A DNA stretch of 33,790 nucleotides, taken from positions 1-33,790 of the IMG/VR virus record IMGVR_UViG_2529292829_000010. One strand, given 5' to 3'. Under the pieces are notes generated by a model. The model was not told the DNA's origin. It did no database searches and saw nothing but the letters and a program-made list of their open reading frames with translations. Of the stretch, positions 1-16,397 are shown one piece after another; within the stretch, counting starts at the first letter, position 1, and each line of letters begins with the position of its first letter. This stretch comes from a virus. Its lineage: Duplodnaviria > Heunggongvirae > Uroviricota > Caudoviricetes. Both the position numbers and the translations under genes were made by a program.

Positions 1-1020
1 CTACTTACTGACCACAAGCGGCAAATCCAGTGTTGGGGTGATTTTGGTTTTACGATCGTAAATCAACACCTGATTTTCTGTTTTGTGTCCACTGAAAATT
101 TGTTTGTCGCGACTGCTGCCTTCGTAATCTGAAATCCCTTTGGCTTTTATGTCATGGAAGTTGCATCCAAACGGAACGCCGGCTTTTTGCTCGGCTGCAC
201 GTTTAGCCTGATTCCACCAGTTGTTCAGCGTCTTGGCTATTACCTTCTCGCCTTTGGTTGTGTTGATCACATACTCGCATGTGCCGGAAGATACATTTCG
301 GGCTAACTGGATCGCCGTACGTAATCGCGGAGACCATTCCTTGATTTGTTTAGTGCCAGTCTTGTTTTGCTCAATGTAAATCCCTTTATCCATAATATCC
401 TGCCATTTCAGCTCGAGTACATCACCGAGCCTTGCCGCACAAAGATAGGATATCTCCATTGCAATACATAACTGTGGAATTGCTTCCGCATATATTGCAG
501 CATACTGTTCATCGGTGATGTAAACAGTACGGGCTTTAAGTGTGAATTTTCTGACTCCTTTGCATGGATTATTTTTTACATACCCACGCTCGTATCCCCA
601 TCCGTATATACGGCTCAGACTTGCCAGTTCATGGTTTGCCTGGGTCTTGCTCTCAAGTCCTCGCTTATCCATGAAAATTCTTACCTGTTCAATTTTTACA
701 TTATCAGCAAGCACTTTTCCGAATACTGCCAACAATGCCCTTTGATGTTGCCGATAATCTTTTTGGGTTCGGGGGGCCAGTTCTGTAAATGCAGGGGAGT
801 CCATAAACATGTGCCATAATTTAGCTACTGTCATTATGTTGTGGAGTTTTGCTTTTTCCAGCTCATAATTTTGCCAGACTTTAGCTATGCTGGTTTCCCG
901 CACTCTTCCGAGCCCTATAGTTCTTGTGCTTCCTTCGGGTTTCCATACGTAACTGTAACCATTCGATCTAACACGCGGTGGTAGTGCATTATCTTTTTTG
1001 TTTTTTCTTGGTCTTCCCAT
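1..1020 (-). CDS. int: Tyrosine-type site-specific integrase, 339 aa
   Basis: Complete ORF: ATG at 1018-1020, TAG stop at 1-3. C-terminal ...SGHKTENQVLIYDR resembles lambda Int ...LGHKSDTMASQYRD (catalytic His/Tyr region). Terminal position next to a xis-like ORF. Confidence 0.9.
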   Translation of the reverse strand: MGRPRKNKKDNALPPRVRSNGYSYVWKPEGSTRTIGLGRVRETSIAKVWQNYELEKAKLHNIMTVAKLWHMFMDSPAFTELAPRTQKDYRQHQRALLAVFGKVLADNVKIEQVRIFMDKRGLESKTQANHELASLSRIYGWGYERGYVKNNPCKGVRKFTLKARTVYITDEQYAAIYAEAIPQLCIAMEISYLCAARLGDVLELKWQDIMDKGIYIEQNKTGTKQIKEWSPRLRTAIQLARNVSSGTCEYVINTTKGEKVIAKTLNNWWNQAKRAAEQKAGVPFGCNFHDIKAKGISDYEGSSRDKQIFSGHKTENQVLIYDRKTKITPTLDLPLVVSK

Positions 1021-1240
1021 TGTTCAGCGCCTCAAAATCGGGTTCAGCGGAAACCAGTTCAGGTGCTTTTGGCATCGTAGTCAGTCCGTGTGGAATATCC
1101 CTGCGAAGAACTATTGGTTCGTTTTTAGGACCGATTACAAATGGGATACCGTGCAGCCTTAACTGGTGTTGCTGTTTTGTGTATCGCTCGTATTTCGTGA
1201 TCTCTTGAATCTCTGCTGGCGATAGAGTTAATTCGTACAT
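989..1240 (-). CDS. xis: Excisionase-like protein, 83 aa
   Basis: Small ORF directly upstream of int and overlapping its start by 32 nt. Starts MYELTL (lambda Xis starts MYLTLQ) and ends in a Lys-rich tail NGKTKKKQKR (lambda ...NGKKAKS). Confidence 0.6.
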   Translation of the reverse strand: MYELTLSPAEIQEITKYERYTKQQHQLRLHGIPFVIGPKNEPIVLRRDIPHGLTTMPKAPELVSAEPDFEALNNGKTKKKQKR

Positions 1241-1306
1241 GTGGTCACGTGCCTTACAGCATGACCGCCGCCAATATAATTCGGGGACGGCGATCAGGGT
1301 TGAACA

Positions 1307-3787
1307 TTAAAAATCAACCGGATTCGGGATCAGTTTTTGCCAGATTGCTGAAACGTATTTTGCCTGGTGACGGGCATCATCCAGCGCATTGTGGCGCACG
1401 CCTTCAAATGGAATAACGATTCTGGCATCAAAGTCGATTGTTTTTCCCAGCTCAACGATTGTGCGTACATCGCGATCGTTGTAGTAACGCCACGGGCAGG
1501 GGATCCCCTGCCGTTCGTATGAACGGCGCAAAATTGCGTTATCGAAAGTTGCACCATTACCCCATACCTGAACGAATTTTTCATCTGAGTATTCGTGGAT
1601 GAACTCCCGAAACCGCGAAAGGGCATCCTTCAGTTTTACCTGGTCTGTTAAAATGGCAGCTCTGGCTTCACTGGACTGCTTCAGCCACCATTCGATGGTT
1701 CCACCGTCAGGAACAGCCCCTGTATTCATTGCGTCAGTCAGACTGATAACGATATAAAATACTGGCCCGATTTCCCCTGTTTGTGGGTCGAAGAAAACCG
1801 CACCAATAACCACGATGGGCGCATTGGTGTTGGTTCCCATTGTTTCAAGGTCGATCATCAGGTGATACCACACTCTGCTGGTGGATGTGATAATGTGACG
1901 ACCGTTCACCGCAATTAAGGGAGCTGCCGTCTCGCCAGTTTCATTATCGCTGGCGTGGTCCTGAGCGCTGCCAGCATTCTCCTTGTGTGGATGTTCAGCG
2001 CCTTCCATTTCCTTCGGATCATTTTCCTGAACTTCAACCTGATTCTTGTCATCGAATGTTTCCTGGTATGTTGCGTCGCCCATCACCGCGCCACAATCAG
2101 GGCAGTTGCCGCCACCGATCTGACCGCAGGCGGTGCAGACTTTTTCCGCTTCCTGTTGTGCTACCGGTTCGGATTGTTTCGTTTCTGGCTCGTTTTGTTG
2201 CGTATTTGGGCTGTTTTGTTCCGCTTTCTGGTCGTTCTGTTCCGTTTCTTGCTGGTTCTGGTTCACAGTATCGCGGGTCTGGATCCCCTTAACCCATTTC
2301 GGATCATTCGGGTCGCTAATCCCTGCAACAAATTCACCACGTGATACTGCAAGCAGTTCATCGGCGTCAGGCTGGCTGATATTGGCTGCCTGCATAATTT
2401 TGTTTACTTCGTTAGCGGTAACTTTTACCGGCCCTGGTTGTGCGGTCGTGTCAGATGCACCAGTATTTTGTTGTGAACCTGAGTATGTACCGTTTTTGCG
2501 GGCGAAATATTCTTCTTTCGTGATTTCAGTAGCCCCTGCAGCCAGTGCCTTATCCAGACCAGAAAGTTTGTTTGCGCGACCGTATTTTTCGCCATCCTTG
2601 TCGGTGAAGAGGAAGTAGAACGGCCCCTCACGCTCTACAGATGGTTCGACTTCCACTTTGCATTCGGTTTTTTCGTTGTCCGGAATTGCCGTTTCCACTG
2701 CATCAGTTTCTGGTACTGGCGACGAGAGAGTATCAGTTGCGCTCTGATTTGTTCCTTCATCTTCAAACACGCCCTTTGTAGTCAGGTATTCAGTAATGTA
2801 TTTGTTCAGTGCCACAGGATCTTTGTGAATGTCGATCGGACGTTCACGGACAAGGCCAAAAATAGTCTGGCGGTCGTAGCGAAGGGCATCAGGCTGTTTG
2901 CGCATCGATGCCGAGATACGCTTCCAGTCTTCGCGGTCGTTGTCGATAACTTCATTTTTTGCCCAGCGATGGATGCTGCCGTCAATGTTTCCGGCATCCA
3001 CATCACCAGGCCAGAGAGCGTAGGCCAGTTCGTCATCCAGTGTTTTCCATGTCTGCTTGTATTCGCGATGAGTGGCAGCAATGACCGGGTTGATTTTTCC
3101 TGTTGAATTTTCAGTGTTCTGTTGATTGACTCTGGCGCGGGCAAGATCAACAACAGACGTGTATTTTCCGGTTTCCTTGCGTTCACCTTCGCGACGTTTT
3201 TTCCAGATGCGCATCTCTGCCTGAATTTCGGGCCATTTGGCACCAGGCTTACATTTATGCTTAACCCACCCGATGGCATGCAGCTTAAGCTCCGGATACA
3301 TGGCGTTAACTTCTGGCATTTTCATCAACGCTTCAACGATATGTCCGTCGAATGTTGCCATGTCTTCCTGCAACAATTCCTGTGCGCTAATAACCATATC
3401 AACGGTGATGTTTTCACATGTGTCGAACTTAACCATGACAGCGTTCTGTACTTCAGGGGCCAGCTTGTCAAAAGTGACGTTCATCGGATCTGATTCAGTC
3501 TCAACCGGAACAAAGGAAGCAGACTCCTCATCCCAGCGGTTTTCCTGCATATATTCAGCATCCCAGGAATCGAGGGCAGGGCGGGGTATACCGGGTTTAT
3601 CCTCGCAAACAAGAAATTTATAAGCGCAGTCCTGAGCAGCCGGATATTGCTCCAGGAATTGCCAGGTAAATTTGGCACGGGCGCGGCGTTCGTCACCGGC
3701 TTCAATGGCAGTGGCTACAGCAACTGCACCTTCTTCCTTTATTGCCTGTTCGTCCGGAATGGCAGCGCAAATAAAGACTTTACTCAT
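1307..3787 (-). CDS. Large early-left protein, 826 aa: unknown N-terminal domain, Cys4 zinc ribbon, acidic linker, C-terminal DnaQ-like DEDDh 3'-5' exonuclease
   Basis: ATG at 3785-3787 with GAGG upstream. Exo motifs in the C-terminus: MIDLETMG (Exo I), WGNGATFDNAIL (Exo II), HNALDDARHQAKY (Exo III). CTACGQIGGGNCPDCG zinc ribbon. Gln/Glu/Asn-rich low-complexity linker. Confidence 0.8.
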   Translation of the reverse strand: MSKVFICAAIPDEQAIKEEGAVAVATAIEAGDERRARAKFTWQFLEQYPAAQDCAYKFLVCEDKPGIPRPALDSWDAEYMQENRWDEESASFVPVETESDPMNVTFDKLAPEVQNAVMVKFDTCENITVDMVISAQELLQEDMATFDGHIVEALMKMPEVNAMYPELKLHAIGWVKHKCKPGAKWPEIQAEMRIWKKRREGERKETGKYTSVVDLARARVNQQNTENSTGKINPVIAATHREYKQTWKTLDDELAYALWPGDVDAGNIDGSIHRWAKNEVIDNDREDWKRISASMRKQPDALRYDRQTIFGLVRERPIDIHKDPVALNKYITEYLTTKGVFEDEGTNQSATDTLSSPVPETDAVETAIPDNEKTECKVEVEPSVEREGPFYFLFTDKDGEKYGRANKLSGLDKALAAGATEITKEEYFARKNGTYSGSQQNTGASDTTAQPGPVKVTANEVNKIMQAANISQPDADELLAVSRGEFVAGISDPNDPKWVKGIQTRDTVNQNQQETEQNDQKAEQNSPNTQQNEPETKQSEPVAQQEAEKVCTACGQIGGGNCPDCGAVMGDATYQETFDDKNQVEVQENDPKEMEGAEHPHKENAGSAQDHASDNETGETAAPLIAVNGRHIITSTSRVWYHLMIDLETMGTNTNAPIVVIGAVFFDPQTGEIGPVFYIVISLTDAMNTGAVPDGGTIEWWLKQSSEARAAILTDQVKLKDALSRFREFIHEYSDEKFVQVWGNGATFDNAILRRSYERQGIPCPWRYYNDRDVRTIVELGKTIDFDARIVIPFEGVRHNALDDARHQAKYVSAIWQKLIPNPVDF

Positions 3788-3866
3788 TTTGTTTTACCTC
3801 ATTACAGATTTAAGGGTGAACAAATCCCTGCCATTGCTGGCATATAAAAATGAAACTGGATATTAA

Positions 3867-4070
3867 TTACGGCGCTGTTTTTAATCCTGCCGGGATTTCG
3901 TTATTATCCATGCGAATAACTTTCTCGACCAGATAACAGTTACCAGGAATTTTCTGTTCTGCTGCGGCAGCCATACATTCTTTCATTGAACCATATATAC
4001 CAGTAACCACATCAACAGGTTCGCCAGTATTAAGAAAAACAGTCAGAGTGAGGGCAACAGCAGTCTTCAT
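3867..4070 (-). CDS. Small membrane protein, 67 aa, YdfD-like by position
   Basis: ATG at 4068-4070 preceded by AAGGA; overlaps the dicB stop (ATGA). N-terminal hydrophobic segment MKTAVALTLTVFL. Identity to YdfD not verified. Confidence 0.55.
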   Translation of the reverse strand: MKTAVALTLTVFLNTGEPVDVVTGIYGSMKECMAAAAEQKIPGNCYLVEKVIRMDNNEIPAGLKTAP

Positions 4071-4255
4071 TGCCAGCGTCCTTTTTGCATCAGGCGTAAA
4101 CGGGCCAGCATTGAAACAATGCATATTTTATTTAATAACTCCCGTTCGTGTTTTCTCTTGTTAATGGCATCTTCAGTAAATACAGGGTTACTGATAGTGA
4201 CACCAATTTCAAAACAACCTTCAGACGTATTAACGTTTGGTAATAACGTTTCCAT
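4067..4255 (-). CDS. dicB: Cell-division inhibitor DicB, 62 aa
   Basis: ATG at 4253-4255 preceded by GAGGA. Protein METLLPNVNTSEGCFEIGVTISNPVFTEDAINKRKHERELLNKICIVSMLARLRLMQKGRWQ matches my recollection of E. coli DicB in length and sequence. Lies immediately downstream of a DicF-like RNA on the same strand. Confidence 0.8.
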   Translation of the reverse strand: METLLPNVNTSEGCFEIGVTISNPVFTEDAINKRKHERELLNKICIVSMLARLRLMQKGRWQ

Positions 4256-4424
4256 TATCGCGTCCTCAACAATGAATTTTGTGATGCGGTGCCTGGTGCC
4301 TCCAGGTGACGTTAACCAGTTAACAATTAACGCCGGATACAGAGAATCCACCCATAACACTGTTTTTGGTTTTAACTGTTCCGCGTGCGCTTAGCCGCAT
4401 TCACCGCATCATAAAATTCACTTT

Positions 4425-4482
4425 AAAAAGGGCGGCAGAGCAGTCACGGAGTAAAACTGATACCGCCAAACGTCACCAGAAA
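4425..4482 (-). ncRNA. dicF: DicF-like small regulatory RNA (ftsZ translation inhibitor)
   Basis: Minus-strand transcript 5'-UUUCUGGUGACGUUUGGCGGUAUCAGUUUUACUCCGUGACUGCUCUGCCGCCCUUUUU-3' matches my recollection of DicF, with a GC-rich 3' stem and U-run. Sits directly upstream of dicB, as in the Qin dicB operon. Confidence 0.75.
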
Positions 4483-4822
4483 ATTGATAACAGAGGGCGT
4501 TGCAGCGGGGTTGTCACTTAAGCGTATGGTCAACCTGACAACCCGGTGTCCTCAACGGGGAAGGAATACCCCCGCCATACTTACCGCCGCGCCATTTCGC
4601 GGAGTGCCACAACCGGAAGCGCACGGTCGACGAAAATTTAACGACAGGCTATCTATGAACCAGCTACCTCGCCGTGCGCTTTCGCGTTATGGTCTGACTT
4701 TTCAGGGAAATATCCTTTCAGTAAACTGTCAATGCCGGATGCTCACCCGTGTCCGGCGCACGCACTCCACCTCACCCGTGGAGAACTCCTTAATTACTAA
4801 CCTTAGCTTTGTTGATTAGCTA

Positions 4823-5041
4823 CTAACGCGGGTATGTAATCATTCTGGCAATGCTTAATGCCGCTGCTTTTTCCAGATTGGTGATATCCTGCTCCAGAGC
4901 GGACATATTTTCAGCCTGCTTAGCCCTGGCTTCATTGGCCCATTTCAAATCCTGCGCTGCATTAATTTTCTGGCGCATCCACTCATAAAGTTCATCATCG
5001 GTATAGTCTGGCGCGATGATGACGGGTTCTCGTTTCTGCAT
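4823..5041 (-). CDS. Small early-left protein, 72 aa, YdfC-like by position and size
   Basis: Internal ATG at 5039-5041 preceded by AAGGAG. Protein MQKREPVIIAPDYTDDELYEWMRQKINAAQDLKWANEARAKQAENMSALEQDITNLEKAAALSIARMITYPR. The frame is open upstream, so the true start is unresolved. Confidence 0.5.
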   Translation of the reverse strand: MQKREPVIIAPDYTDDELYEWMRQKINAAQDLKWANEARAKQAENMSALEQDITNLEKAAALSIARMITYPR

Positions 5042-5560
5042 GTCGACTCCTTGTGGTTCGTGTTGCCTGCTTTTAACCACATCAGGCGAGGTGGTATCCT
5101 GAAAGCCGACCAAAGCTTTACGGATAAATAAGTTATGTTGCAACCACCAATAAATCCGCTTAAAAATATGAAAATTGATTACTGGTATAAAGCACTTACA
5201 GTTGTTGGTGCTGCGTTGTTTGTCTTTAATGGAACATCTTTTTTTGACAGATACCCCGCTGTTCCACTGGCTTTTTTGTCCTCCGGTATTTTCTTCACTG
5301 GCCTTGGAGAGTGGATCAATCACCCTCTCAGAGTGAGATTTATTGGTCCCGGAGCCGTTGCCCGGGGGCATAACCGTTCTCCGTGCACACTCGGCATTAT
5401 CTTCGATATATTGGGTGTCTGCCTGATTGTTACAGGAGTCGTCAAATTCTTCTGAAGAGAATCCACACACAGGGCATACAACCGGAATACGGCAAATGAT
5501 TTCACCCGGCTCGATGTGTGGGTACTCGCCATCAATTTTTTGTTGCTCCCGTATACCCAT
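4823..5560 (-). CDS. Alternative long reading of the same frame (246 codons) with a Cys-rich CPVCG N-terminus
   Basis: ATG at 5558-5560 with GAGG upstream is the first leftward ORF after the PL-like promoter. No stop until 4823. The central segment looks low-complexity and an antisense membrane-protein ORF overlaps at 5168-5455. Confidence 0.3.
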   Translation of the reverse strand: MGIREQQKIDGEYPHIEPGEIICRIPVVCPVCGFSSEEFDDSCNNQADTQYIEDNAECARRTVMPPGNGSGTNKSHSERVIDPLSKASEENTGGQKSQWNSGVSVKKRCSIKDKQRSTNNCKCFIPVINFHIFKRIYWWLQHNLFIRKALVGFQDTTSPDVVKSRQHEPQGVDMQKREPVIIAPDYTDDELYEWMRQKINAAQDLKWANEARAKQAENMSALEQDITNLEKAAALSIARMITYPR

Positions 5561-5741
5561 GTTGACCTCATTTCCCCTTAACGCCGGGGTAGCGGAACAA
5601 AAACCTGCTGCATAGTTATTAAAGTTGAACCCTGCCGTCATGTTCTTACGCCTCGGGCTGGCTACTTAACCCCTGACCACTGCCTGGTAACTCGAAGTAT
5701 TGCCCTGCATTCTGTGGGGCGGGGTGGGTTGGCATGCAATA

Positions 5742-5770
5742 AATCTAAAAGTATTTAGTTTTATAGTCAA
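5742..5770 (-). promoter_or_regulatory. PL-like leftward early promoter with overlapping palindromic operator
   Basis: On the minus strand: -35 TTGACT (5765-5770), 17-nt spacer, -10 TAGATT (5742-5747). Operator-like palindrome TCTAAAAGTATTTAG at 5744-5758, related to the PR operator. Confidence 0.5.
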
Positions 5771-5788
5771 GAGGAATCTAAATTAATT

Positions 5789-5816
5789 TAAAAAAAAGGT
5801 CGGCATAACCGACCTT
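5789..5816 (-). terminator. Rho-independent terminator downstream of the repressor gene
   Basis: Minus-strand RNA AAGGUCGG-UUAUG-CCGACCUU followed by 8 U, located about 20 nt after the cI stop. Confidence 0.8.
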
Positions 5817-5837: not shown

Positions 5838-6485
5838 TTATAGGTTGAACTGTACACCTTTTGCTACGGCAACAATTTTACACTCTGGCGTAAGCAAGGA
5901 TGATTGATAGCGCGGATTGAGAGGACTTAAATACACAAGTTTTCCATCAATAACTAATTTTTTTATAGTCATAGACGGTTCATTTGTAAGAGGATCTGGA
6001 ACTATTACAGCGACGATACTGCCATTTTTATAACTTTCTCCTGGTCTTAGGATCACAGTGGCACCAACTGGGATACTTGGCGACCCTGAGGGGTTATGCA
6101 TAGTGTCATCAGGCATTGAAACGGCAAAATCACCTTCCACTACATCAAAGAATGTGGTGATCCTATCGACATTTCCCATTGTTTTCTCTCCTTCTAAGAT
6201 TAGGAAAGAAATCGCGTCACCCCACGAAAGGTAGGGGATCTTGGTGCCTGGATTGTTCTGCACAAAAGATAGTTCAGGAGACGATACTCCATACAGGAGA
6301 TAGGACTCAGTAGTTCCTAATGCTTGGGCTAACTTACTTAGAGCTTTGCTGCCGGGTTCGTTTAGATCTTTCTCCCAGTACCCTATAGTAACCCCAGTCA
6401 CGCCTGAAAGCTTACCCAGCTCTACTTGGGTGAGTCCCTTATCTTTTCTGAGTTTCTTAAGCCTGATGCCAAGGCTTTCCATCAT
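5838..6485 (-). CDS. cI: CI-type prophage repressor: HTH_XRE N-domain plus S24/LexA-like autopeptidase C-domain, 215 aa
   Basis: HTH LTQVELGKLSGVTGVTIGYWE. C-domain AVSMPDDT and TIKKLVIDGKLVYLSPLNPRY parallel lambda CI NSMTAPT and [21 protein letters not shown] (Ser/Lys dyad). Divergent from the cro-like gene. Confidence 0.9.
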   Translation of the reverse strand: MMESLGIRLKKLRKDKGLTQVELGKLSGVTGVTIGYWEKDLNEPGSKALSKLAQALGTTESYLLYGVSSPELSFVQNNPGTKIPYLSWGDAISFLILEGEKTMGNVDRITTFFDVVEGDFAVSMPDDTMHNPSGSPSIPVGATVILRPGESYKNGSIVAVIVPDPLTNEPSMTIKKLVIDGKLVYLSPLNPRYQSSLLTPECKIVAVAKGVQFNL

Positions 6486-6511
6486 TTTCTCCCGCGAGTT
6501 GAATATAAATT

Positions 6512-6568
6512 ATTTTAGATTGCATTGACCTAAAAAAAATTATCCTGTAATCTAAAAATACTTAGATT
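6512..6568 (+). promoter_or_regulatory. PR-like rightward promoter and OR operators
   Basis: -35 TTGACC (6525-6530), 17-nt spacer, -10 TAATCT (6548-6553). 20-bp palindrome AATCTAAAAATACTTAGATT (6549-6568) overlaps the -10. A second imperfect palindrome TTTTAGATTGCATTGACCTAAAA lies at 6512-6535. Confidence 0.55.
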
Positions 6569-6581
6569 TTAGGAGGGTGAA

Positions 6582-6809
6582 ATGCGAGTTGATGAACTTG
6601 TTCAGTTTTTTGGCTCTGTTCAGAGGGTCGCTGATTTTTATGGGATAACCCGCGAAGCTATTTACATGTGGCGTAAGCGCCCCGGTGAAATAGTTCCGAA
6701 AGGGAGAGCTGCGGAAGCTGCTGCATACTCCAAGGGAAAATTATCTTTGGACCCAGAGCTTTACAAAAAGAAGGATACCACTCAGAGCGAAAGGAAGAGT
6801 GATTCATGA
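6582..6809 (+). CDS. cro: Cro-like HTH regulator (YdaS-like), 75 aa
   Basis: AGGAGGG RBS. HTH VADFYGITREAIYMW. First rightward gene, divergent from cI. Confidence 0.8.
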   Translation: MRVDELVQFFGSVQRVADFYGITREAIYMWRKRPGEIVPKGRAAEAAAYSKGKLSLDPELYKKKDTTQSERKSDS

Positions 6810-10586: not shown

Positions 10587-11273
10587 ATGACCACAATAAA
10601 TACGTTTATGACAGTTGCTGATTTCAAACGGCCTAAATTGGAGCTCCCAAACGGGGCAAACAAACTACTACTGCACTCTTGCTGTGCTCCATGTTCCGGT
10701 GAAGTGATGGAGGCGCTTCAGGCCTCGGGAATCGACTACACCATCTTTTTCTACAACCCGAACATTCATCCTCAGAAAGAGTATTTAATTCGTAAGGATG
10801 AGAATATTCGCTTTGCTGAACAACACGGCGTGCAGTTTATCGATGCTGATTACGACACAGACAACTGGTTTGAACGTGCCAAAGGAATGGAATGGGAGCC
10901 CGAGAGGGGGATCCGTTGTACCATGTGTTTTGACATGCGTTTTGAGCGGACAGCGTTGTACGCTGCTGAAAATGGTTTCAGTGTGATCAGCAGTTCGCTG
11001 GGCATTTCACGCTGGAAAAATATGCAGCAGGTTAACGACTGTGGGCGGCGAGCCGTCGCGCATTATCCGGGAATGGTGTACTGGGATTATAACTGGCGCA
11101 AGCAGGGCGGCTCGTCCCGTATGATTGAAATCAGCAAGCGCGAAAAATTCTATCAGCAGGAATATTGTGGCTGTGTGTATTCTCTGCGCGATACCAATCT
11201 ACACCGCAAATCTCAGGGACGCCCTCTTATCAAAATTGGTCAACTCCACTACGGTAAAGAAGAGAAGGAGTGA
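10587..11273 (+). CDS. QueH-like (DUF208) epoxyqueuosine reductase family protein, 228 aa
   Basis: Motif [11 protein letters not shown] near the N-terminus, plus RCTMCFD and YCGCVY Cys clusters, as I recall for DUF208/QueH. Preceded by two stem-loops and an AT-rich leader. Weak SD, so start is uncertain. Confidence 0.7.
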
Positions 11274-11399
11274 TTTTATGGATCACCTTTCTGATTGATT
11301 TCATATTGGCGAGGTAGCAGGAGTTAAGTAGAATTGCTGCGGGTGCTTGAGGCTATCTGTCTCAGGCATGAACACCAAAAGGCAGATAGAGAAAAGCCC

Positions 11400-11462
11400 C
11401 AGTTAACATTACGCGTCCTGCAAGACGCTTAACATTAATCTGAGGCCATATCTATGCGACAC
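11400..11462 (-). ncRNA. Putative Sok-like antisense RNA
   Basis: Minus-strand promoter-like TTGACC (plus 11491-11496) with a weak -10 near 11466-11471. Antisense to the mok-like start at 11454. Hairpin GCGUCUUGCAGGACGC (plus 11412-11427) near the predicted 3' end. Boundaries inferred. Confidence 0.35.
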
Positions 11463-11513
11463 ATAGAGATTAGCCTCTTACGGACCGAAAGGTCAAGGAG
11501 AAGCAGGCTATGA
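11454..11513 (+). CDS. mok-like leader ORF, 19 codons, translationally coupled to hok
   Basis: ATG at 11454; its TGA stop (11511-11513) overlaps the hok ATG (11510-11512). Confidence 0.35.
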   Translation: MRHIEISLLRTERSRRSRL

Positions 11514-11665
11514 AGCAGCGAAAGGCGATGTTAATCGCCCTGATCGTCATCTGTTTAACCGTCATAGTGACGGCACTGGTAACGAGGAAAGACCTCTGCG
11601 AGGTACGAATCCGAACCGGCCAGACGGAGGTCGCTGTCTTCACAGCTTACGAACCTGAGGAGTAA
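11510..11665 (+). CDS. hokD: Hok/Gef-family type I toxin, 51 aa
   Basis: MKQRKAMLIALIVICLTVIVTALVTRKDLCEVRIRTGQTEVAVFTAYEPEE: single TM segment and conserved Cys pattern, matching my recollection of HokD/RelF. AGGAG 10 nt upstream. Below the 60-aa cutoff of the ORF track. Confidence 0.85.
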   Translation: MKQRKAMLIALIVICLTVIVTALVTRKDLCEVRIRTGQTEVAVFTAYEPEE

Positions 11666-15048: not shown

Positions 15049-16098
15049 ATGGCTAATACTGTAAAAATATCCAGTTGTGAGTTAATCAACGCTGATTGTC
15101 TGGAATTTATCCAGACCTTACCGGAAAATTCTGTCGATCTGATAGTCACAGACCCGCCATACTTTAAAGTGAAGCCCGAGGGCTGGGATAACCAGTGGAA
15201 GGGCGACGATGATTACCTGAAATGGCTGAATCAGTGTCTGGCGCAGTTCTGGCGGGTACTGAAGCCCGCAGGAAGTCTTTACCTGTTCTGTGGTCATCGC
15301 CTGGCATCTGACACCGAAATCATGATGCGTCAGCGCTTTAATGTGCTGAACCACATTATCTGGGCGAAGCCGTCAGGGCGCTGGAACGGGTGCAACAAGG
15401 AAAGCCTGCGGGCGTATTTCCCGGCAACAGAGCGCATTCTGTTTGCAGAACATTATCAGGGGCCATACCAGCCCAAAAATGACGGCTATGAGGCAAAGGG
15501 GCGTGAGCTAAAACAGCACGTCATGGCCCCGCTGATTTCTTACTTTCGTGATGCGCGTGAATCACTGGGAATAACGTCAAAACAGATAGCGGAAGCCACC
15601 GGAAAGAAAAACATGGCTTCGCACTGGTTTGGTACCAGTCAGTGGCAATTACCGAACGAGGGTGATTACAACAAATTGCAGGCGTTGTTTGCGCGTGTTG
15701 CGGCAGAAAAGCATCAGCGAGGGGAACTGGAAAAGCCACACCACCAGCTGGTCAGCACATACAGTGAACTGAACCGGCAATATGCCAGCCTGCTGGAAGA
15801 GTATAAATCTTTGCGGCGTTATTTTTCCGTATCGGCTGCCGTTCCGTATACGGATGTCTGGACGCATAAATCCGTGCAGTTTTATCCGGGCAAACATCCC
15901 TGTGAAAAACCGGCAGATATGTTGCGGCAGATAATTGAGGCCAGCAGTCACCCTGGTGATTTGGTTGCGGATTTTTTTATGGGTTCAGGTTCAACGGTAA
16001 AAGCGGCGATGGCACTGGGGCGTTGTGCGATTGGTGTTGAGCTGGAGACCGGACGTTTTGAACAGACAGTCAGGGAAGTTCAGGATTTAATCGTTTGA
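15049..16098 (+). CDS. DNA methyltransferase, beta-class amino-MTase (probably N6-adenine), 349 aa
   Basis: Motif IV IVTDPPYF near the N-terminus and motif I DFFMGSGST near the C-terminus (IV-TRD-I order). No adjacent restriction endonuclease. Confidence 0.85.
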   Translation: MANTVKISSCELINADCLEFIQTLPENSVDLIVTDPPYFKVKPEGWDNQWKGDDDYLKWLNQCLAQFWRVLKPAGSLYLFCGHRLASDTEIMMRQRFNVLNHIIWAKPSGRWNGCNKESLRAYFPATERILFAEHYQGPYQPKNDGYEAKGRELKQHVMAPLISYFRDARESLGITSKQIAEATGKKNMASHWFGTSQWQLPNEGDYNKLQALFARVAAEKHQRGELEKPHHQLVSTYSELNRQYASLLEEYKSLRRYFSVSAAVPYTDVWTHKSVQFYPGKHPCEKPADMLRQIIEASSHPGDLVADFFMGSGSTVKAAMALGRCAIGVELETGRFEQTVREVQDLIV

Positions 16099-16148
16099 AA
16101 CGGATGAGATTGCAGAATTAATTACGCACCATTATTATTCTGCTCCCG

Positions 16149-16224
16149 GCCCTTTAGCTCAGTGGTGAGAGCGAGCGACTCATAATCGCCAGGTCGCTGG
16201 TTCAAATCCAGCAAGGGCCACCAT
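16149..16224 (+). tRNA. tRNA-Ile2 (anticodon CAU, lysidine type; ileZ/ileX-like)
   Basis: Cloverleaf: acceptor GGCCCTT/AAGGGCC, D-arm GCTC-AGTGGTGA-GAGC, anticodon loop CUCAUAA (CAT at 16182-16184), T-loop TTCAAAT, encoded CCA. Close to E. coli ileX as I recall it. Confidence 0.85.
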
Positions 16225-16231
16225 CACATAC

Positions 16232-16305
16232 CGCCATTAGCTCATCGACAGAGAGTGCCAGCTTTCGAAACTGGCTGTGTGGGGCTCGGGTCCCCGATGG
16301 CAATC
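16232..16305 (+). tRNA. Degenerate tRNA-like element (possible pseudo-tRNA, Arg-like UCG)
   Basis: tRNA-like arms, but the D-loop lacks GG, the anticodon stem GCCAG/CTGGC encloses a 9-nt loop CTTTCGAAA, the T-loop is CTCGGGT (no A58), the acceptor pairing is imperfect and there is no CCA. Confidence 0.35.
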
Positions 16306-16320
16306 TATTATCTGCATTAT

Positions 16321-16397
16321 GCGTTGTTAGCTCAGCCGGACAGAGCAATTGCCTTCTAAGCAATCGGTCACTGGTTCGAATCCAGTACAACGCGCCA
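16321..16397 (+). tRNA. tRNA-Arg (anticodon UCU, decodes AGA; argO-like)
   Basis: Acceptor GCGTTGT/ACAACGC, anticodon stem ATTGC/GCAAT with loop CTTCTAA (TCT at 16355-16357), T-loop TTCGAAT, encoded CCA. Confidence 0.85.

What the first reader, a model, noticed from the sequence alone, without database searches (positions are those of the whole stretch)
3867..4482. DicF sRNA - DicB - YdfD-like host cell-division module, with the sRNA invisible to the ORF track
Minus strand 4425-4482 encodes an RNA (5'-UUUCUGGUGACGUUUGGCGGUAUCAG...GCCGCCCUUUUU) that matches my recollection of DicF. Directly downstream is a 62-aa ORF that matches DicB in length and sequence, then a 67-aa single-TM ORF coupled by an ATGA overlap. 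DicF represses ftsZ translation and DicB inhibits division through MinC (established). The module appears intact in an apparently complete prophage, so it would be expressed from the PL-like promoter on induction.
Basis: partly seen in the sequence, partly recalled or inferred. Interest (0 to 1): 0.55.

Follow-up and report, generated by a model that had tools for sequence, protein, structure and literature searches.

The report
Known DicF–DicB–YdfD prophage division-inhibition module
This is the well-studied dicBF cell-division-inhibition cassette of lambda-like E. coli prophages (small RNA DicF, small protein DicB, and a YdfD-like protein); it is intact and correctly identified here, but it is present in most E. 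coli genomes and is ordinary.

Summary
On the minus strand, 4482..4430 is 53/53 identical to E. coli K-12 dicF and matches Rfam DicF at 76.7 bits (threshold 48). Positions 4255..4067 encode a 62-aa DicB, 57/62 identical to K-12, that passes the Pfam and NCBIfam cut-offs. Positions 4070..3867 encode a 67-aa DUF1482 protein, 40/63 identical to K-12 YdfD, joined to dicB by an ATGA overlap.

ydfC and both non-coding spacers (340 and 174 nt) are laid out as in the K-12 Qin dicBF operon. The cassette sits in the early-left operon of a lambdoid prophage. Upstream lie a CI-type repressor and a PL-like promoter that overlaps operator palindromes; downstream lie exo, xis and int.

The same DNA occurs in 4744 of 5426 complete E. 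coli genomes and in isolated phages, and one phage record already annotates DicF.

- The "single-TM" call for the YdfD-like protein is weak.
- Prophage completeness cannot be judged, because the window ends inside the tail genes.
- dicB and ydfD expression needs read-through of the DicF terminator.
- ydfA and ydfB are replaced here by an antisense membrane-protein gene.

Nothing new. Interest is low.

The parts
4430..4482 (-). DicF small RNA (53 nt). Its terminator hairpin is about 4467..4431 and is followed by the T-run 4429..4425.
   Evidence: Rfam RF00039 76.7 bits, full-length. 53/53 identical to K-12 MG1655 dicF b1574. The hairpin is predicted at -15.9 kcal/mol.
4067..4255 (-). dicB, 62 aa, cell-division inhibitor. 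It is translated from an internal in-phase ATG of a longer 97-aa ORF, with a GAGGA Shine-Dalgarno sequence upstream.
   Evidence: Pfam PF05358 E 4.4e-39. NCBIfam NF049927 135.8 bits against a cut-off of 100. 57/62 identical to K-12 DicB.
3867..4070 (-). ydfD-like gene, 67 aa, DUF1482 family. It overlaps the dicB stop codon by ATGA. Compared with K-12 YdfD it carries four extra C-terminal residues (KTAP), caused by a 1-nt indel.
   Evidence: Pfam PF07358 E 2e-17. phrog_1092 E 7e-34. 40/63 identical to K-12 YdfD. No NCBIfam hit.
4256..4429 (-). 174-nt spacer, the dicB 5' UTR, the same length as in K-12.
   Evidence: Alignment with K-12 Qin and length check. Sub-threshold Rfam STnc100 hit at 4432..4223, 39.6 bits against a gathering score of 47.
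4483..4822 (-). 340-nt ydfC-dicF leader, the DicF precursor. It contains a helix of about 24 bp (4692-4669 paired with 4607-4630) at the position expected for the RNase III cut that yields the 190-nt DicF species.
   Evidence: Seven differences from K-12 over 340 nt. Fold z-score -4.25. Pair table. Processing scheme from PMC10448788. The cleavage position here is inferred from length only.
4823..5041 (-). ydfC, 72 aa, the gene upstream of dicF in the dicBF operon.
   Evidence: 71/72 identical to K-12 YdfC. phrog_1744 E 6.5e-39.
5135..5455 (+). 106-aa membrane-protein gene with three hydrophobic segments. It is encoded antisense inside the PL-to-DicF transcription unit and takes the place of ydfA/ydfB.
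   Evidence: Substitutions against two E. coli homologues fall on its third codon positions: 21 of 37 and 24 of 38. Hydropathy. Protein homologues at 36-38% identity in phages mEp390 and Bcep176, and 88% in phage HannyBb.
5742..5770 (-). PL-like promoter (TTGACT-17-TAGATT). The operator-like palindrome at 5742..5762 overlaps its -10 region.
   Evidence: Promoter scan. The palindrome recurs at 6502-6524 and 6546-6569 between cI and cro. The repressor 3' end through PL to the ydfA start codon is 97-99% identical to loci in other E. coli strains, where ydfA follows.
5838..6485 (-). CI-type repressor, 215 aa: an N-terminal HTH domain like P22 C2 and a C-terminal S24 peptidase domain like lambda CI. 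An intrinsic terminator follows at 5816..5796.
   Evidence: Pfam HTH_3 E 1.5e-12 and Peptidase_S24 E 1.5e-10. PDB sequence matches. Terminator scan.
6582..6809 (+). cro-like gene, 75 aa, divergent from cI.
   Evidence: ORF and position. 'Cro/CI family' genes occupy the same position in related loci.
1..3787 (-). Distal genes of the same leftward operon: exonuclease (1307..3787, 826 aa), excisionase-like ORF (989..1240) and integrase (1..1020).
   Evidence: Pfam Rv2179c-like exonuclease domain E 3.7e-69. Phage_integrase E 6.5e-8. Same gene order in CEA224S and phage HannyBb.

Best explanation
This is the dicBF operon of a lambdoid (Qin-type) prophage, embedded in the early-left (PL) operon.

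In the lysogen, the CI-type repressor (5838..6485) occupies the operator that overlaps the PL-like promoter (5770..5742) and keeps the operon largely silent. When repression is lost, RNA polymerase transcribes leftward through ydfC and the 340-nt structured leader into DicF. Loss of repression is probably by RecA-stimulated self-cleavage, since the repressor has an S24 domain; this step is inferred.

RNase III cuts the leader duplex to give a precursor of about 190 nt. RNase E generates the 5' end of the 53-nt DicF. Its 3' end is its own intrinsic terminator. DicF, identical to the K-12 RNA, pairs with ftsZ mRNA and blocks its translation; it also pairs with xylR, pykA and manX mRNAs.

Transcripts that read through the DicF terminator are translated into DicB. 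DicB binds MinC and directs it to the septum, which depolymerises FtsZ; it also blocks ManYZ-dependent phage DNA entry. The translationally coupled DUF1482 protein follows. Its K-12 homologue YdfD inhibits IspG and lyses dividing cells, and DicB counteracts that lysis.

The net effect on induction is a double block of host division.

Shown here: the identity, integrity and arrangement of the parts, and the promoter/operator layout. Taken from K-12 experiments: processing, targets and phenotypes. Inferred: SOS inducibility, and the activity of the 67-aa allele.
For: - DicF is 53/53 identical to K-12 dicF and scores 76.7 bits against Rfam.
- DicB passes the Pfam and NCBIfam cut-offs and is 92% identical to K-12.
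- The third ORF is DUF1482, 63% identical to YdfD, with the ATGA overlap.
- ydfC is 71/72 identical, and the 340-nt and 174-nt spacers have the same lengths as in K-12. The leader differs at 7 of 340 positions.
- The leader is strongly structured (z -4.25), with a helix of about 24 bp where the RNase III cut is expected.
- There is a single PL-like promoter on that strand, and it overlaps a palindrome shared with the cI-cro region.
- The repressor has HTH and S24 domains.
- The gene order PL, ydfC, DicF, dicB, ydfD, exo, xis, int matches E. coli prophages and the isolated phage HannyBb.
- Mechanism from the literature: PMC10448788 covers dicBp as PL-like, RNase III/E processing, the 1146-nt and 1608-nt transcripts, DicF-ftsZ and DicB-MinC/ManYZ. 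PMC8835842 covers YdfD-IspG and DicB preventing YdfD lysis.
Against: - No expression data exist for this element.
- The DicF terminator lies between the promoter and dicB. I found no N-like gene, boxA or put-like structure that would ensure read-through.
- A gene on the opposite strand (5135..5455) lies between PL and ydfC and could interfere through convergent transcription.
- An Ala-Gly cleavage site in the repressor was not identified.
- The YdfD-like allele differs from K-12 YdfD at 23 of 63 positions and has a C-terminal extension. In K-12 YdfD, even single-residue terminal changes reduce lysis.
- My RNAduplex check of DicF against ftsZ was uninformative: 33 of 500 shuffles did as well. 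Target pairing therefore rests on sequence identity with the characterised RNA.
- The host, and so its ftsZ leader, is not in the window.
Confidence: 0.88

Rival explanations
1. The module works mainly in the lysogen, not during lytic induction. Low-level or stationary-phase leakage from PL would give DicF and DicB for metabolic tuning and for exclusion of ManYZ-dependent phages. Division inhibition on induction would then be a side effect.
For: In K-12, DicF accumulates in stationary phase and dicBp fires spontaneously in a subpopulation. DicB protects against phages that use ManYZ (PMC10448788). The cassette is retained in 4744 of 5426 E. coli genomes, often in defective prophages such as Qin.
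Against: This is not exclusive with the main explanation. Here the cassette sits in a prophage whose early-left operon and structural genes look intact, under a CI-type repressor with an S24 domain, and it is also present in isolated phages. That points to a role in the lytic programme.
Confidence: 0.3
2. The cassette is a silent passenger here. Transcription from PL is blocked before DicF or dicB, either by convergent transcription of the antisense membrane-protein gene or by the DicF terminator, so DicB and the YdfD-like protein are not made.
For: A real gene on the opposite strand lies between PL and ydfC. The DicF terminator precedes dicB. No antitermination device was found.
Against: exo, xis and int lie further down the same operon and are intact, so read-through must occur for the phage to recombine and excise. 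The isolated phage HannyBb has the same antisense gene and cassette. Read-through transcripts are observed in K-12.
Confidence: 0.07
3. DicF is transcribed from its own promoter as an independent sRNA gene rather than processed from the PL transcript.
For: An older report of a promoter upstream of dicB is mentioned in PMC10448788.
Against: The scan finds no promoter-like site on the minus strand between 5742 and 3700. Primer extension and Northern blots in K-12 found no internal promoter. The leader is nearly identical to that of K-12.
Confidence: 0.04

Closest known systems
dicBF operon (ydfABC-dicF-dicB-ydfDE) of cryptic prophage Qin, E. coli K-12
   Same: DicF is identical (53/53). DicB is 92% identical, YdfC 99%, and the YdfD homologue 63%. 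The spacer lengths are the same (340 and 174 nt), as are the dicB-ydfD ATGA overlap, the downstream exonuclease gene and the PL-like promoter next to the immunity region.
   Different: - The repressor here is a 215-aa CI type with an S24 peptidase domain. K-12 DicA is 135 aa and non-cleavable.
- ydfA and ydfB are absent, replaced by about 500 bp that carry an antisense membrane-protein gene.
- exo, xis and int are intact here; in K-12, ydfE and intQ are pseudogenes interrupted by IS2.
- The YdfD allele is 67 aa rather than 63 aa.
dicF-dicB-DUF1482 cassettes of E. coli prophages and isolated lambdoid phages (strain CEA224S prophage at potC; phages HannyBb, Tritos, vB_EcoS-689R5, mEp460; PPompW/Stx2a prophages)
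   Same: 901 bp spanning the cassette are 99.6% identical to CEA224S and 91-92.5% identical to these phages. The gene order towards exo-xis-int is the same, and CEA224S carries the same 204-nt DUF1482 allele.
   Different: The immunity region, the segment between PL and ydfC, the integrase and the late genes are mosaic. No record covers more than 69% of the first 25 kb of the window.
Lambda Kil, Rac KilR and other prophage-encoded FtsZ/division inhibitors expressed from PL
   Same: Same position in the early-left operon and the same outcome, a block of host division on induction (established knowledge, not tested here).
   Different: The sequences and mechanisms are unrelated. Here the block is an sRNA acting on ftsZ mRNA plus a MinC-dependent protein.

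Membership tests
DicF RNA (Rfam RF00039) | Covariance-model score above the curated gathering threshold, over the full length | tested here: met
   76.7 bits against 48, model positions 1-52/52, E 1.9e-15
DicF RNA (Rfam RF00039) | Sequence of the experimentally characterised K-12 DicF, including the regions that pair with ftsZ, xylR and pykA | tested here: met
   53/53 identical to b1574
DicF RNA (Rfam RF00039) | 3' intrinsic-terminator hairpin followed by a U-run | tested here: met
   Hairpin at -15.9 kcal/mol followed by CUUUUU
DicF RNA (Rfam RF00039) | [quoted passage not shown] | tested here: inconclusive
   Position and spacer lengths are met. The leader helix at the expected RNase III site is predicted. 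Actual processing is not testable in silico.
DicF RNA (Rfam RF00039) | Represses ftsZ translation in vivo (Hfq-dependent) | not testable with these tools
   Only a crude duplex calculation was possible, and it was uninformative
DicB (Pfam PF05358 / NCBIfam NF049927) | Profile match above the curated cut-offs over the whole 62-aa protein | tested here: met
   132.4 bits against 27, and 135.8 bits against 100, residues 1-62/62. 57/62 identical to K-12.
DicB (Pfam PF05358 / NCBIfam NF049927) | Binds MinC and causes MinC-dependent filamentation; inhibits ManYZ | not testable with these tools
   No solved structure or homologue in the PDB by sequence. Needs an experiment.
YdfD lysis protein / DUF1482 (Pfam PF07358) | DUF1482 profile match above the cut-off | tested here: met
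   63.3 bits against 25, residues 6-61. phrog_1092 E 7e-34.
YdfD lysis protein / DUF1482 (Pfam PF07358) | Lies immediately downstream of dicB and overlaps it | tested here: met
   ATGA overlap at 4070..4067
YdfD lysis protein / DUF1482 (Pfam PF07358) | Close identity to the characterised 63-aa K-12 YdfD, whose lysis activity needs intact termini | tested here: inconclusive
   40/63 identical, plus a 4-aa C-terminal extension. RefSeq calls this allele 'DUF1482 family protein', not 'lysis protein YdfD'. Lysis is sensitive to terminal changes.
   The hydrophobic run is about 11-12 residues, and no Kyte-Doolittle 15-residue window exceeds 1.5, against 2.1 for K-12 YdfD
Lambdoid early-left (PL) operon under CI control | Sigma-70 promoter overlapped by an operator that recurs in the cI-cro intergenic region; divergent cI and cro; int/xis/exo at the distal end | tested here: met
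Lambdoid early-left (PL) operon under CI control | N/nut or put-type antitermination to pass terminators | tested here: not met
   No boxA-like site between 3800 and 5800, and the total count does not exceed chance. The PL leader is not structured (z +1.5) and has no PR-side repeat. No N-like ORF in the position expected.

The most novel reading that the evidence does not exclude
In this prophage lineage the dicBF cassette may have been rewired in two ways. It sits under an SOS-cleavable CI-type repressor rather than the non-cleavable DicA. Its first two genes (ydfA and ydfB) are replaced by a small three-TM membrane-protein gene transcribed head-on against PL, which annotation pipelines usually miss. 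If that gene is expressed in the lysogen, convergent transcription could gate how much PL transcript reaches DicF and DicB. The protein itself could be an unrecognised exclusion or moron function.
Probability: 0.12. Interest if true: 0.3.

Novelty: already known. Interest (0 to 1): 0.07.

Why it matters
It matters little as a discovery. The dicBF operon has been studied since the late 1980s, and this copy carries a DicF identical to the K-12 RNA.

Its practical value is for annotation.
- DicF is left unannotated under 6694 matches in 3969 complete RefSeq E. coli genomes.
- Phage records often cover the DicF region with spurious 'hypothetical protein' ORFs.

Flagging the RNA and its neighbours correctly prevents those mis-calls. 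It also marks the prophage as one that will filament its host on induction.

Tried and rejected
1. put-like or nut-like antitermination to explain passage through the DicF terminator. The PL leader 5556..5737 folds no better than shuffles (z +1.53). No inverted copy of it lies downstream of PR. boxA-like matches do not exceed chance, and none lie between 3800 and 5800. Rejected for lack of evidence.

2. The 272-aa minus-strand ORF 4823..5641 as a real gene upstream of DicF. It is ydfC fused in frame to the antisense shadow of the + strand membrane-protein gene. The codon-position bias of substitutions supports the + strand frame, although PHROGs holds a family (phrog_35040) built from such calls.

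3. RNAduplex of DicF against the K-12 ftsZ leader, with shuffled controls. It did not discriminate: -38.5 kcal/mol against -31.9 +/- 4.2, with 33 of 500 shuffles as good. I rely on sequence identity to the characterised RNA instead.

4. Identifying the source genome with an exact 50-mer scan of GTDB species representatives. No hit, so the host remains unknown. The DNA is E. coli-like.

5. PADLOC defence models for DicB, the YdfD-like protein and the membrane ORF. No hits.

6. PDB sequence search for DicB. No hits.

Full report
**Observation.** I read 3600..4800 on the minus strand and listed the ORFs there. An Rfam scan of the whole window at gathering thresholds gives four hits. One is DicF (RF00039) at 4481..4430 on the minus strand: 76.7 bits against a threshold of 48, all 52 model positions, E 1.9e-15. 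The 53-nt dicF annotated in E. coli K-12 MG1655 (b1574) occurs exactly, 53/53, at 4482..4430. Its 3' half forms the expected terminator hairpin and is followed by CUUUUU.

174 nt downstream, an ATG at 4255 preceded by GAGGA opens a 62-aa ORF that ends at 4067.
- It matches Pfam DicB (E 4.4e-39, 1-62/62).
- It passes the NCBIfam DicB model (135.8 bits, cut-off 100).
- It is 57/62 identical to K-12 DicB.

The next ORF (4070..3867, 67 aa) overlaps the dicB stop by ATGA.
- It matches Pfam DUF1482 (E 2e-17).
- It is 40/63 identical to K-12 YdfD, with four extra C-terminal residues from a 1-nt indel.

The only weak detail is "single-TM": the N-terminal hydrophobic run is about 11-12 residues, and no 15-residue hydropathy window exceeds 1.5.

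**Surroundings.** Upstream on the same strand is ydfC (5041..4823, 71/72 identical to K-12). It is separated from DicF by a 340-nt leader, the same length as in K-12, that differs from K-12 at 7 positions.
- The leader plus dicB 5' UTR folds much better than shuffles (z -4.25).
- A helix of about 24 bp (4692-4669 with 4607-4630) sits where a 190-nt DicF precursor would begin.
- This fits the published RNase III / RNase E processing scheme (PMC10448788).

Further upstream lie:
- a CI-type repressor gene at 5838..6485, with an HTH domain like P22 C2 and an S24 peptidase domain like lambda CI;
- its terminator at 5816..5796;
- the only promoter-like site on that strand, TTGACT-17-TAGATT at 5770..5742.

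The -10 region of that promoter lies inside a palindrome that recurs twice between cI and the divergent cro at 6582..6809. That is the layout of a lambda-type PL/OL.

Downstream of the cassette are a full-length exonuclease (1307..3787), an excisionase-like ORF and an integrase. To the right of cro the window carries a YdaT-like gene, DnaT-like and P-like replication genes, RusA, a methylase, two tRNAs, a holin, an endolysin, the terminase, the portal, a ClpP-capsid fusion and the tape-measure protein. The window then ends inside the tail region. The element therefore looks like an intact lambdoid prophage as far as the window goes, but its completeness cannot be established.

**How common it is.** The 901 bp around the cassette match 4744 of 5426 complete E. 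coli genomes, with a median of two copies and up to ten. The best match is 99.6% (strain CEA224S) and K-12-like strains match at about 92%. They also match 59 phage records, among them the phage genome records Tritos, HannyBb and mEp460 and the PPompW/Stx2a prophages. The Tritos record explicitly annotates "DicF antisense sRNA, inhibits ftsZ".

A 66-nt DicF query finds 6694 places in 3969 genomes, 3046 records at 99% identity or better. None of the records listed in that output has a feature annotated under the match. The K-12 reference record does annotate dicF. So the RNA is "invisible" to routine annotation, but it is not unknown.

**Mechanism.** The mechanism follows from the identity of the parts and from K-12 experiments.
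- dicBp is PL-like and repressor-controlled.
- Transcripts of 1146 nt (ending at the DicF terminator) and 1608 nt (read-through to ydfD) are seen.
- DicF blocks ftsZ translation and also targets xylR, pykA and manX.
- DicB directs MinC against FtsZ and blocks ManYZ-dependent phage entry (PMC10448788).
- YdfD inhibits IspG and lyses dividing cells, and DicB counteracts this lysis (PMC8835842).

In this prophage the repressor carries an S24 domain, unlike the non-cleavable DicA of K-12, so SOS induction is a reasonable inference. I did not identify the cleavage site.

**Differences from K-12 and open points.**

(i) ydfA and ydfB are missing. Similarity to other E. coli loci runs from the repressor 3' end through PL exactly to the ydfA start codon (about 5557) and then stops. 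About 100 nt of unmatched sequence follows, and then a cassette at about 5455..5060. That cassette is about 83% identical over at least 80% of the query in 793 E. coli genomes, with partial matches in 1971. It encodes a 106-aa protein with three hydrophobic segments on the opposite strand (5135..5455).
- Substitutions against two homologues fall on that ORF's third codon positions (21 of 37 and 24 of 38).
- The protein has 36-38% identical relatives in phages mEp390 and Burkholderia Bcep176.

So it is the real gene. The 272-aa minus-strand ORF (4823..5641) is its shadow fused in frame to ydfC. Annotators usually leave the stretch empty or call the shadow (phrog_35040).

(ii) dicB and everything beyond it lie past the DicF terminator. 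I found no N-like gene, boxA or put-like RNA. Read-through is therefore assumed from the K-12 data and from the need to express exo, xis and int.

(iii) The 67-aa DUF1482 allele is named "DUF1482 family protein" by RefSeq rather than "lysis protein YdfD". It differs at the C terminus, where K-12 YdfD is sensitive to change. Its lysis activity is unproven.

**Verdict.** The cassette is a textbook, widely distributed prophage module, so novelty is nil and interest is low. The most novel reading still open is the antisense membrane-protein gene and its possible interference with PL transcription. It is a minor regulatory variant, and I found no evidence that it has any such effect.

Noticed in passing
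window 5135..5455 (+): A 106-aa ORF with three hydrophobic segments lies antisense between the PL-like promoter and ydfC, in place of ydfA/ydfB. The third-codon-position bias of substitutions and distant phage homologues (mEp390, Bcep176 gp33, HannyBb) show it is a real gene. No Pfam, PHROG or PADLOC family matches it. RefSeq mostly leaves the region unannotated or calls the shadow ORF on the other strand.
   Followed up: partly
window 4223..4432 (-): The dicB 5' UTR (the DicF-dicB spacer) gives a full-length but sub-threshold match to Rfam STnc100 (RF02076): 39.6 bits against a gathering score of 47, E 1.9e-6 in a 3-kb search. The Salmonella 'sRNA' family may correspond to this UTR.
   Followed up: no
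window 4483..4822 (-): The ydfC-dicF leader is almost as conserved as DicF itself: 7 differences from K-12 in 340 nt, whereas ydfD is visibly much more diverged at the DNA level in the same alignment. It folds into a long irregular duplex (z -4.25), with a helix of about 24 bp at the expected RNase III site.
   Followed up: partly
window 11341..11665 (+): A hok/sok-type type I toxin-antitoxin locus lies inside the prophage: the sok RNA (RF01794, 106.7 bits) at 11341..11512 and a 51-aa Hok-like ORF at 11510..11665.
   Followed up: no
window 16148..16397 (+): Two phage-borne tRNA genes, tRNA-Met(CAT) and tRNA-Arg(TCT), lie just after a DNA methylase gene (15049..16098) and before a TerB-like ORF and the lysis genes.
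   Followed up: no
window 10587..11273 (+): A QueH-family (epoxyqueuosine reductase) ORF of 228 aa, Pfam E 1.6e-65, sits in the nin-like region of the prophage. This is a tRNA-modification enzyme carried by a phage that also carries tRNAs.
   Followed up: no
window 3800..5800 (-): No N-like gene, boxA or put-like RNA was found in the early-left operon, although exo, xis and int lie beyond the DicF intrinsic terminator. How this phage group achieves read-through is not evident from the sequence.
   Followed up: partly
window 4366..4521 (+), 4484..4819 (+); locus L008 3410..3703: Spurious ORFs of 51 and 111 aa overlap DicF and its leader. In the phage HannyBb record, small 'hypothetical protein' CDSs are annotated over the corresponding stretch and DicF is not annotated.
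   Followed up: yes
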